This document shows positions 19,130 to 19,709 of a stretch of DNA of 64,000 nt, in pieces (the stretch's first letter is position 1; each line of letters opens with the position of its first letter). The DNA lies in the IMG/VR virus record IMGVR_UViG_2851976983_000001, positions 32,001 through 96,000 of that record, one strand, 5' to 3'. The notes beneath the pieces were generated by a model, which had not been told where the DNA came from, did not search any database, and was given only the letters and a program-made list of their open reading frames with translations. The translations under genes and the position numbers were made by a program. Source of the stretch: a virus. Taxonomy: Duplodnaviria > Heunggongvirae > Uroviricota > Caudoviricetes.

Positions 19130-19153
19130 AAAATGGGGCCGAAGCCCCATTTT
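19130..19153. terminator. hairpin AAAATGGGGC-CGAA-GCCCCATTTT
   Basis: Perfect 10 bp stem, GNRA-type loop, A/T runs on both sides. Confidence 0.5.
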
Positions 19154-19308
19154 ATTCAAACTATTTATTCTGCTGGCACCTAAACAAAAGGTAAAGCATA
19201 AGCAGAGATAGGACTTGGCTATGCAGAGGAGCCTGAATAAATGTCGTTAGCATTTCACTCATCGAAAGATACCTCTATTCGATTAATCAAATGCGCTACG
19301 AGACCAAA

Positions 19309-19337
19309 TTGACGTAGATTCACCTTAGTTGTAAGAT
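19309..19337 (+). promoter_or_regulatory. candidate sigma70 promoter TTGACG-17-TAAGAT (TTGACGTA repeated at 19347)
   Basis: Read directly; no ORF of 60 aa or more downstream. Confidence 0.3.
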
Positions 19338-19342
19338 GAACT

Positions 19343-19442
19343 TGTATTGACGTATCCGTTCTCGTAACGCGATATGAGGTTTTTAACGATGGCAGTCGTT
19401 AAAAACCAGAAAGAACTCCCGTTCGGGGGTTCTTTTTTTTTT
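19343..19442 (+). ncRNA. candidate small RNA (about 100 nt) from promoter to strong terminator
   Basis: Bounded by the 19309 promoter and the 19412 terminator; contains small hairpin AACGA-N6-TCGTT; could instead encode a 25-codon peptide. Confidence 0.3.
19412..19442 (+). terminator. strong intrinsic terminator AGAACTCCC-GTTC-GGGGGTTCT + T10
   Basis: 9 bp stem (one G-U pair) followed by a run of 10 T. Confidence 0.7.
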
Positions 19443-19496
19443 GCGTAGTAGTCACTTTCCCATTGCACTTCCCTCTCGTTGTATGAAAACTACGGA

Positions 19497-19526
19497 TTGT
19501 AGCATTTCCAATAGCTTGTTTATAAT
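19497..19526 (+). promoter_or_regulatory. candidate sigma70 promoter TTGTAG-18-TATAAT
   Basis: Consensus -10 TATAAT at 19521-19526. Confidence 0.3.
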
Positions 19527-19615
19527 TTGCATAGCATAGCACAACCCACATGCGCATGTAGGACTGACAGGAATTGCCCCACAACGTATAAAAAAGTTTG
19601 TGATTATCAAAGAAA

Positions 19616-19635
19616 AAAGGGGCCGAAGCCCCTTT
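19616..19635 (-). terminator. intrinsic terminator AAAGGGGC-CGAA-GCCCCTTT, same stem-loop core as the 19130 hairpin
   Basis: On the minus strand the stem is followed by TTTTTCTTTG, about 160 nt downstream of the tRNA. Confidence 0.6.
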
Positions 19636-19709
19636 GGATTATGGTTTGCGCTAAAAAAGTGTTGCTACGATGCTAAGAAGCAATGGTTAAGAACGTCTGC
19701 CGTGTCTAT

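What the first reader, a model, noticed from the sequence alone, without database searches (positions are those of the whole stretch)
19130..19640. Twin GGGGCCGAAGCCCC hairpins and a promoter-to-terminator unit with no ORF (candidate sRNA)
Two hairpins 480 bp apart share the same 14 nt stem-loop core with a GNRA-type CGAA loop (19135-19148 and 19618-19631). Between them on the plus strand there is a TTGACG-17-TAAGAT promoter-like element (19309-19337) and about 100 nt later a strong terminator with a 10 T run (19412-19442), with no ORF of 60 aa or more; only a 25-codon reading frame is present. A second promoter-like element TTGTAG-18-TATAAT (19497-19526) precedes the second hairpin. This looks like one or two small RNA genes antisense to the tRNA transcription direction.
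Basis: seen in the sequence. Interest (0 to 1): 0.5.

Follow-up and report, generated by a model that had tools for sequence, protein, structure and literature searches.

The report
Hidden toxin-antitoxin cassette on phage-plasmid
The "orphan small RNA" is real, but on the opposite strand next to it lies an unannotated, conserved 33-codon gene for a membrane peptide, so the 500-bp cassette between the two hairpins looks like a new RNA-controlled (type I) toxin-antitoxin module on pHCM2/SSU5-type phage-plasmids.

Summary
The window is E. coli plasmid p503829_100, an SSU5/pHCM2-like phage-plasmid. The second hairpin is at 19619-19632, not 19618-31. The loops are not GNRA; on the minus strand they are c(UUCG)g.

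The plus-strand promoter-to-terminator unit (about 19344-19441) is a well-supported sRNA gene:
- It has the only promoter-like element in this spacer conserved in all 8 sequences compared.
- It forms three hairpins (z = -6.8).
- Eight pairs in the middle hairpin show compensatory changes, and the G·U pattern fits only the plus strand.
- It matches no Rfam family.

It is intact in every complete locus that has the sRNA, with pN/pS of 0.19-0.45. It has a GAGG Shine-Dalgarno sequence, a single predicted TM helix and a basic tail, and its stop codon lies 13 nt before hairpin 1.

My best reading (about 0.6) is a new type I toxin-antitoxin cassette. Hairpin 1 would terminate the toxin mRNA, hairpin 2 would terminate the tRNA-Asn unit, and the sRNA would be antisense to the toxin's long 5' UTR.

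Toxicity, transcript ends and repression are untested. The proposed second sRNA is not supported. The peptide matches no known toxin family.

The parts
19130..19153 (-). Hairpin 1 (core 19135-19148). On the minus strand it reads AAAAUGGGGC-UUCG-GCCCCAUUUU followed by GCUUUG. Proposed intrinsic terminator of the small-ORF (toxin) mRNA, possibly bidirectional.
   Evidence: The fold is -16.6 kcal/mol on the minus strand. It lies 13 nt after the ORF stop codon in all lineages. The structure is kept while the sequence changes in Klebsiella, where the simple scan calls it a minus-strand terminator.
19161..19262 (-). Unannotated 33-codon ORF (ATG 19262 to TAG 19161): MSEMLTTFIQAPLHSQVLSLLMLYLLFRCQQNK. 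Predicted single-pass membrane peptide with a basic C-terminal tail; candidate type I toxin.
   Evidence: The length and frame are the same in 20 loci, with 7 peptide variants. pN/pS is 0.19-0.45 with an excess of third-position changes. Best 19-aa hydropathy window is 1.4-2.2, the N-terminus carries -1 and the C-terminus +2 to +4. The AF2 model is one helix, residues 3-31. No feature is annotated under it in the listed plasmid records.
19261..19283 (-). Invariant translation-initiation hairpin AUCGAA-UAGAGGUAUCU-UUCGAU. The GAGG Shine-Dalgarno sits in or at the loop, 9 nt before the AUG, and the A and U of the AUG lie in the 3' arm.
   Evidence: Stem arms, CCTC (the SD complement) and start codon are invariant; the loop varies at three positions in the Citrobacter RHBSTW-00524 variant. 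RNAalifold predicts the hairpin. In the full-length mRNA model the probability that the AUG is unpaired is 0.07.
19290..19373 (-). Predicted long imperfect hairpin in the toxin 5' UTR. It pairs the complement of sRNA stem-loop 1 (19373-19345) with 19327-19290 and encloses the complement of the sRNA promoter.
   Evidence: RNAalifold columns 162-239 are mostly invariant or changed on one side only. This is the most conserved 100 nt of the spacer.
19309..19337 (+). sRNA promoter TTGACG-17-TAAGAT (TATGAT in Klebsiella).
   Evidence: It is the only promoter-like site conserved at the same alignment column in all 8 aligned sequences.
19344..19441 (+). Small RNA of about 98 nt (5' end inferred from the -10). 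SL1 is 19351-19376, SL2 is 19378-19407, and SL3 is the intrinsic terminator 19408-19437 followed by U10 to 19442. Candidate antitoxin.
   Evidence: MFE is -42 kcal/mol with z = -6.84 on the plus strand, against -30.7 on the minus strand. 97.6% of cells are paired, 8 pairs show double changes, and 0 of 500 shuffles reach the observed score. About 32 G·U cells stand against 4 C·A cells, which favours the plus strand. No Rfam family reaches its threshold.
19534..19543 (-). Candidate extended -10 promoter of the toxin mRNA (TGTGcTATGCT, i.e. TGnTATnnT). It implies a transcription start near 19527 and a 5' UTR of about 265 nt that contains the full complement of the sRNA.
   Evidence: TG-n-TAT(G/C/T)(C/A/T)T sits at the same column in all 8 sequences while the neighbouring bases vary. 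The -35 is weak (CCTACA). This is inferred and has not been shown.
19616..19635 (-). Hairpin 2 (core 19619-19632), AAAGGGGC-UUCG-GCCCCUUU followed by UUUCUUUG on the minus strand. Terminator of the tRNA-Asn unit and upstream boundary of the cassette.
   Evidence: The simple scan calls it a minus-strand terminator in the window, pHCM2 and Klebsiella. It is invariant in all lineages, and it is also present in SSU5-like elements that lack the cassette.
19497..19526 (+). Second promoter-like element TTGTAG-18-TATAAT. Judged not functional as an sRNA promoter.
   Evidence: The -10 is TATAAT only in this window and TAGAAT in pHCM2 and Citrobacter. The -10 site is removed by a 14-nt deletion in three of the four Klebsiella-type sequences; Kpn JP20 keeps TAGAAT but has lost the -35.

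Best explanation
The roughly 500-bp segment bounded by the two GGGGCCGAAGCCCC hairpins is a self-contained type I toxin-antitoxin-like cassette carried by a subset of SSU5/pHCM2-type phage-plasmids.

On the minus strand, a roughly 400-nt mRNA is proposed to start near 19527 from an extended -10 promoter. It would carry a long, highly folded 5' UTR, encode a 33-aa single-helix membrane peptide (19262-19161), and stop at hairpin 1.

On the plus strand, inside the DNA of that 5' UTR, a sigma-70 promoter drives a three-hairpin sRNA of about 98 nt (19344-19441). This sRNA is perfectly complementary to nt ~87-184 of the mRNA.

Inferred mechanism, by analogy with ldr/rdl, hok/sok and tisB/istR-1: the sRNA pairs with the 5' UTR, starting through loop-loop contacts. 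The long duplex then triggers RNase III cleavage and/or blocks ribosome loading upstream of the structured start site. The peptide would therefore be made only when the sRNA decays, for example after loss of the plasmid or after transcription shut-off. It would then damage the inner membrane, which would stabilise the low-copy prophage-plasmid or abort a competing infection. Hairpin 2 shields the cassette from tRNA-Asn read-through.

Shown here: the sRNA structure and strand, conservation of its promoter, the coding signature of the ORF, and the co-occurrence and arrangement of the parts. Inferred: the transcript ends, the overlap, toxicity, repression and the biological role.
For: sRNA:
- Its promoter is conserved in all 8 sequences compared.
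- It forms three hairpins, z = -6.84.
- Covariation: 8 pairs with double changes, 97.6% of cells paired, against 45-60% when the 3' partners are slid by 1-3 columns.
- Its wobble pairs are valid only on the plus strand.

ORF:
- It is 33 codons in every one of 20 loci, with 7 variants.
- pN/pS is 0.19-0.45.
- The SD and AUG are invariant.
- It has a TM-like helix and a basic tail.
- The stop codon lies 13 nt before hairpin 1.

Arrangement:
- No usable sigma-70 promoter lies between the ORF and the sRNA gene (sequence inspection).
- A conserved TGnTATnnT lies upstream of the sRNA gene.
- The 400-nt minus-strand RNA is unusually stable, z = -7.97, with the start codon buried.

Distribution:
- The cassette moves as a unit between different left-hand contexts, and it is absent from SSU5, Cyrano, and the Enterobacter, Klebsiella AR_0079 and E. 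coli M160133 relatives checked.
- Small hydrophobic peptides with polar or charged C-termini and sRNAs opposite the 5' end are features of known type I loci (PMC2887945, PMC8309996).
Against: - There is no expression data for either strand, so transcript ends are inferred.
- The proposed toxin promoter has a poor -35. In most Klebsiella-type sequences a 14-nt deletion sits immediately downstream of its -10.
- The peptide matches no known toxin family in Pfam, NCBIfam, PHROGs, PADLOC or PDB sequences.
- The Fst/Ldr APxxxG motif is not met.
- Folding with the sRNA target region blocked barely changes SD/TIR accessibility, so simple occlusion of the RBS is not supported.
- Toxicity and sRNA-dependent repression are untested.
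- Only about 6 distinct lineages exist, so covariation outside SL2 is thin.
Confidence: 0.6

Rival explanations
1. The parts are the same, but this is not a toxin-antitoxin pair. The 33-aa peptide would be a non-lethal small membrane protein of the phage-plasmid, for example a modulator of a host transporter or sensor, or a superinfection-exclusion or lysis-timing factor. The plus-strand RNA would be its cis-antisense tuner.
For: All the structural evidence for the ORF and the sRNA applies equally. The peptide has no homology to any known toxin. Many small membrane proteins are regulators rather than toxins (PMC8309996, concluding section).
Against: The cassette is terminator-insulated and autonomous, has a long folded 5' UTR and a buried start codon, and carries a constitutive-looking antisense promoter. 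That combination is the signature architecture of type I TA loci on plasmids. The cassette also occurs patchily, like an addiction or moron module.
Confidence: 0.2
2. One reading: a stand-alone trans-acting sRNA (or two) that regulates host or phage mRNAs by limited base pairing. The neighbouring small ORF would be functionally unrelated, transcribed from its own short leader, and not overlapped by the sRNA.
For: The sRNA has its own promoter and terminator. An (ARN)3-like AGAAAGAAC precedes a long U-tail, which is Hfq-type anatomy. The toxin transcription start is unproven.
Against: - The sRNA is almost entirely paired, with only about 7 free nt at the 5' end.
- The 9-nt direct repeat ATTGACGTA (19308 and 19346), which could give trans pairing with a short leader, is not kept in Klebsiella.
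- A duplex scan of the whole plasmid gave no convincing non-self target. The best hit lies on the non-coding strand of the tape-measure gene.
- No promoter-like site lies between the ORF and the sRNA gene.
- The sRNA and the ORF are always found together.
- The second sRNA is not conserved.
Confidence: 0.13
3. There is no functional RNA gene. The hairpins are only terminators of minus-strand genes or the tRNA unit, the plus-strand promoter-like and terminator-like sites are chance, and the region is spacer DNA, or the plus-strand unit is a leader peptide/attenuator.
For: Promoter-like matches are no more frequent than in shuffles. A weak Phe_leader-like hit exists, 36.1 bits against a gathering score of 55.
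Against: The core 19245-19375 is 85-95% invariant between lineages that are otherwise about 72% identical. SL2 shows compensatory changes. The 24-aa plus-strand frame is lost in Klebsiella and frameshifted in pHCM2. No plus-strand gene lies downstream to be attenuated.
Confidence: 0.03

Closest known systems
ldr/rdl (E. coli long direct repeat loci; LdrD 35 aa, RdlD ~60-nt sRNA)
   Same: Both have a peptide of about 35 aa with an N-terminal acidic or polar start, an Ala-Pro early in a single TM helix, and a basic C-terminal tail. In both, the sRNA is encoded opposite the 5' untranslated leader well upstream of the start codon, on an mRNA of about 400 nt (PMC2887945; PMC8309996).
   Different: No sequence-profile match to Ldr or Fst was found. 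The family motif APxxxG is not met: here it is APL(L/H/Q)SQ. The sRNA is longer (about 98 nt, three hairpins) and does not match Rfam rdlD. The cassette is single-copy on a phage-plasmid, not a chromosomal tandem repeat.
hok/sok of plasmid R1 (and pnd, srnB, flm)
   Same: Both are plasmid-borne, terminator-bounded cassettes with a stable, compactly folded toxin mRNA of about 400 nt, possible 5'-3' pairing, and a small antisense RNA against the leader. The expected role is post-segregational killing or phage exclusion.
   Different: There is no mok-like overlapping reading frame. The peptide is 33 aa rather than about 50 and is not Hok-like. The antisense target lies about 80 nt upstream of the SD rather than over a leader RBS. 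Rfam sok is not matched.
tisB/istR-1 and zorO/orzO
   Same: In both, the sRNA acts far upstream of a structurally occluded RBS in a long 5' UTR (standby-site or RNase III type control). The toxin is a helical membrane peptide of about 29 aa.
   Different: Those sRNAs are divergently encoded and share only about 18-21 nt of complementarity. Here the sRNA gene lies inside the leader, so complementarity would be complete (if the transcription start is as proposed). There is no peptide homology, and no LexA box was looked for.

Membership tests
Type I toxin-antitoxin system (class) | Toxin is a small (<60 aa) hydrophobic protein with a predicted transmembrane helix, often with a polar or charged C-terminus | tested here: met
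   The peptide is 33 aa. Best 19-aa hydropathy window is 1.4-2.2 and the C-terminal charge is +2 to +4. The AF2 model is a single helix, residues 3-31. The coding signature is pN/pS 0.19-0.45.
Type I toxin-antitoxin system (class) | [quoted passage not shown] | tested here: inconclusive
   The sRNA gene is well supported on the opposite strand, 82 nt upstream of the AUG. Overlap requires the mRNA to start upstream of 19441. A conserved extended -10 at 19543-19534 is compatible with that, but no transcript mapping exists.
Type I toxin-antitoxin system (class) | Over-production of the protein is toxic, and the sRNA represses its synthesis | not testable with these tools
   This needs an induction and rescue experiment.
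Type I toxin-antitoxin system (class) | Toxin mRNA is highly structured with an occluded translation start | tested here: inconclusive
   The 400-nt minus-strand RNA folds with z = -7.97. An invariant hairpin holds the SD and AUG. The probability that the AUG is unpaired is 0.07, but the SD is about 0.55 unpaired. These are predictions only.
Fst/Ldr toxin superfamily | Match to the family profiles (Pfam Ldr_toxin/Fst_toxin) or to LdrD, Fst or SprA1 sequences | tested here: not met
   There was no Pfam hit even at E <= 10, no NCBIfam hit, and no PDB sequence hit with the family profile at E <= 10. LdrD is deposited as 5LBJ according to PMC8309996.
Fst/Ldr toxin superfamily | Conserved APxxxG / PxxxGC motif in the TM helix (PMC8309996) | tested here: not met
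   A11-P12 are invariant, but P+4 is an invariant Gln and P+3 an invariant Ser; there is no Gly.
Hok/Gef-Sok | Hok_Gef protein profile, sok RNA model, overlapping mok leader frame | tested here: not met
   There is no Pfam hit and no Rfam hit at E <= 10. No second conserved minus-strand frame is likely, because indels of 14 and 1 nt occur upstream of the sRNA gene.
Known Rfam sRNA / leader families (e.g. Phe_leader, ctRNA_p42d, C4) | Score at or above the family gathering threshold | tested here: not met
   The best hits were Phe_leader at 36.1 bits against 55 and ctRNA_p42d at 29 against 50, both driven by the terminator hairpin. Nothing reached the gathering score. The plus-strand mini-ORF is not conserved.

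The most novel reading that the evidence does not exclude
The cassette would be a previously unrecognised addiction or abortive-infection module specific to SSU5/pHCM2-type phage-plasmids. Its toxin would belong to a new peptide family unrelated to Hok, Ldr/Fst, TisB, Ibs, Sho, Zor or DinQ. Its three-hairpin sRNA would control the toxin from ~80 nt upstream of the RBS by remodelling a long leader hairpin that also contains the sRNA's own promoter. It would help to explain the stable carriage of pHCM2 in S. Typhi and of related elements in Klebsiella and Citrobacter, including phage-defective copies such as this one.
Probability: 0.3. Interest if true: 0.6.

Novelty: new member of a known kind. 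Interest (0 to 1): 0.45.

Why it matters
pHCM2 has been a "cryptic" plasmid of S. Typhi since 2001, and SSU5-like phage-plasmids are common in clinical Klebsiella, Citrobacter and E. coli. An unannotated RNA-controlled killer cassette would give a concrete, testable reason for their stable low-copy maintenance, even when the phage part is broken by IS elements as it is here. It would also add a new peptide family and a new sRNA family to the type I toxin-antitoxin repertoire. Finally, it shows that both genes are missed by standard annotation: no feature is annotated under the ORF in any of the 44 matching plasmid records.

Tried and rejected
- Known RNA families: an Rfam E-value scan of 17000-22000 and a gathering scan of the whole window found only tRNA-Asn in this region.
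- Leader peptide or attenuator (Phe_leader-like hit): rejected. The 24-aa plus-strand frame is not conserved and there is no downstream plus-strand gene.
- Second sRNA from TTGTAG-18-TATAAT: rejected, because it is not conserved.
- Operator hypothesis for the palindrome ATCGAA-N11-TTCGAT upstream of the sRNA promoter: dropped. The only other copy is inside a CDS, and the palindrome is better explained as the SD/AUG hairpin of the minus-strand ORF.
- Trans pairing through the ATTGACGTA direct repeat (19308 and 19346): rejected, because it is not conserved in Klebsiella.
- Target search by duplex energy over the whole plasmid: no credible non-self target. The method is crude and ignores accessibility.
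- Wider homologues:
  - A protein-anchored scan and a DNA-pattern scan of GTDB species representatives found nothing.
  - IMG/VR and metagenome pattern scans returned only the same four to six lineages.
  - tblastn against phages found nothing.
  - phmmer against 1.84 billion representatives found only the family itself.
- Literature: no paper links pHCM2 or SSU5 to a type I toxin or to this peptide.
- RBS occlusion by the sRNA: modelling showed almost no change.

Full report
**Identity of the window.** The region is 100% identical to E. coli strain 503829 plasmid p503829_100 (NZ_CP025870.1; record coordinate = window + 3719). It is 94-95% identical to pHCM2 of S. Typhi CT18 and to Citrobacter plasmids, and about 72% identical to a set of Klebsiella plasmids. 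These are SSU5-type phage-plasmids (IncFIB). The surrounding genes are phage DNA-metabolism genes, all on the minus strand. Window 19047-19793 is an unannotated spacer. It lies between a 242-aa hypothetical gene (18318-19046, minus strand) and tRNA-Asn (19794-19868, minus strand).

**Check of the observation.**
- The 14-mer GGGGCCGAAGCCCC occurs exactly twice in 64 kb, at 19135-19148 and 19619-19632, with 0 expected.
- TTGACG-17-TAAGAT (19309-19337), the 13-pair hairpin plus T10 (19408-19442), the 24-aa plus-strand frame, and TTGTAG-18-TATAAT (19497-19526) are all present.
- The loop CGAA is not GNRA. Read on the minus strand, both hairpins are c(UUCG)g tetraloops and are slightly more stable there. 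Hairpin 2 has its U-run on the minus strand, directly downstream of the tRNA unit.
- The two hairpins are not conserved as twins. In the Klebsiella lineages hairpin 1 keeps its structure but has a different sequence.

**The plus-strand unit is a real sRNA gene.** I aligned eight homologous spacers: the window, pHCM2, two Citrobacter, three K. pneumoniae and a second E. coli.
- TTGACG-17-TA(A/T)GAT is the only promoter-like site kept at the same column in all of them.
- The RNA from about 19344 to 19441 folds into three hairpins at -42 kcal/mol, z = -6.84. The reverse strand gives -30.7 kcal/mol.
- The middle hairpin changes sequence but not structure: GGTTTTTAACGA/TCGTTAAAAACC becomes GGTCTTTCACGA/TCGTGAAAGACC and TGCCTTAAACGA/TCGTTTGAGGCA.
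- I built a covariance model and aligned its 21 hits, 10 of them distinct. In that alignment 97.6% of cells pair, against 45-60% when the partners are slid. Eight pairs show changes on both sides, and 0 of 500 shuffles reach the observed covariation.
- About 32 cells are G·U, which would be A·C on the other strand, against 4 C·A. The transcribed strand is therefore the plus strand.
- No Rfam family reaches its threshold.
- The 24-codon plus-strand frame is lost in Klebsiella and frameshifted in pHCM2.
- The second proposed unit fails. Its -10 is TATAAT only in this window, the -10 site is deleted in most Klebsiella-type sequences, and its supposed terminator faces the other way.

- The best-conserved 100 nt of the spacer lie upstream of the sRNA start (19245-19345), not in the sRNA body.
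- On the minus strand this block is the leader and start of a 33-codon ORF, from ATG 19262 to TAG 19161: MSEMLTTFIQAPLHSQVLSLLMLYLLFRCQQNK.
- An invariant GAGG lies 9 nt upstream of the ATG.
- The ORF has the same length and frame in all 20 complete loci that carry the sRNA, with seven peptide variants.
- Nucleotide differences concentrate at third positions, and pN/pS is 0.19-0.45 in all 15 pairwise comparisons. It is therefore a protein-coding gene under purifying selection.
- The peptide has one hydrophobic helix, a -1 N-terminus and a +2 to +4 C-terminal tail.
- Its stop codon lies 13 nt before hairpin 1, which makes hairpin 1 the natural terminator of this gene. The scan calls it so in Klebsiella.
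- No feature is annotated under the ORF in any of the 44 plasmid records that match the peptide. A few S. Typhi assemblies call it 'hypothetical' or 'uncharacterised'.

**Arrangement and likely mechanism.**
- No sigma-70-like promoter lies in the 82 nt between the ATG and the sRNA start (and inspection).
- Upstream of the sRNA gene, an extended -10 (TGnTATnnT, 19543-19534) sits at the same column in all lineages.
- That would give an mRNA of about 400 nt, from ~19527 to ~19130, whose 5' UTR contains the whole complement of the sRNA.
- This RNA is predicted to be unusually stable, z = -7.97.
- RNAalifold predicts the following:
  - an invariant hairpin holding the SD and AUG;
  - a long leader hairpin, 19373-19290, that pairs the complement of sRNA SL1 with the sequence just upstream of the SD hairpin and encloses the complement of the sRNA promoter. 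This would explain why the promoter region is so strongly conserved;
  - possible pairing of the 5' leader with the 3' half of the ORF.
- This is the anatomy of a type I toxin-antitoxin locus. It is closest to ldr/rdl (sRNA opposite the 5' leader; PMC2887945) and resembles hok/sok and tisB/istR-1 in mRNA logic.
- I infer that the sRNA pairs with the leader and causes RNase III cleavage and/or prevents ribosome loading.
- Blocking the target region in silico hardly changes SD accessibility, so direct RBS occlusion is unlikely.
- The role is probably post-segregational killing or abortive infection for the low-copy prophage-plasmid.
- None of the following is shown: transcript ends, toxicity, repression.

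**Distribution.**
- The cassette is in 81 plasmid records: 34 Klebsiella, 33 Salmonella, 12 Citrobacter and 2 E. coli.
- It is also in 7 IMG/VR contigs and 4 metagenome contigs, but in no GTDB species-representative genome.
- For comparison, 531 plasmid records match the 1.2-kb query spanning this spacer and the tRNA gene.
- The cassette is absent from SSU5, Cyrano, and the Enterobacter, Klebsiella AR_0079 and E. coli M160133 relatives checked.
- It sits between the same two hairpins but next to different left-hand genes in Citrobacter RHBSTW-00524 and K. oxytoca. It therefore behaves as a portable, terminator-insulated module.

**Comparison with known families.**
- The peptide has no hit in Pfam, NCBIfam, PHROGs, PADLOC or PDB sequences.
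- phmmer against 1.84 billion representatives finds only its own family.
- It shares an Ala-Pro and a basic tail with Ldr/Fst, but lacks the APxxxG motif (PMC8309996).
- I therefore file it under the class 'type I TA-like', not under any known toxin family.
- No paper was found that links pHCM2 or SSU5 to such a locus.

**Verdict.** The most likely identity is a new type I toxin-antitoxin cassette, at confidence about 0.6. The main rival is a non-toxic small membrane protein with a cis-antisense regulator. This is a new member of a known kind, of moderate interest.

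Noticed in passing
window 19709-19793 (minus strand): A perfect 20-bp stem with a variable ~47-nt apex lies immediately 3' of tRNA-Asn. It shows two compensatory pairs and a U·G valid only on the minus strand. The same hairpin follows the tRNA arrays in the Klebsiella and E. coli CH4804 relatives. It may be a processing or stabilising element of the tRNA transcript.
   Followed up: partly
window 19869-20616: About 750 nt upstream of tRNA-Asn (minus-strand sense) carry no annotated gene, although 19751-20100 is 97% identical to phage SSU5. 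This could hold the tRNA promoter or further non-coding features.
   Followed up: no
window ~36284-48672: Tail-fibre and host-specificity genes are interrupted by IS2, IS100 and IS3-family elements and are annotated as partial. This copy of the phage-plasmid is probably defective as a phage yet is maintained as a plasmid.
   Followed up: no
window 5035-5453: A full-length cspA-type RNA thermoregulator (Rfam RF01766, 185.7 bits) precedes a plasmid-borne cspG gene.
   Followed up: no
window, whole: Joining the three fetched pieces of NZ_CP025870.1 did not reproduce the window exactly over all 64 kb (one search printed False). Local offsets around the finding agree (window + 3719). The cause is unknown.
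   Followed up: no
L019 2840-2935 (Enterobacter hormaechei p34399): In a relative that lacks the cassette, the ~235-nt spacer between phoH and hairpin 2 holds a different short plus-strand frame and a 16-bp palindrome (GTTAATGCTAATGTAC/GTACATTAGCATTAAC). A YafO-family type II toxin lies ~2 kb away. Different accessory modules may occupy this hotspot.
   Followed up: no
window 18057-18080: A second ATCGAA-N12-TTCGAT palindrome lies inside the 17685-18239 CDS. It is probably chance.
   Followed up: no
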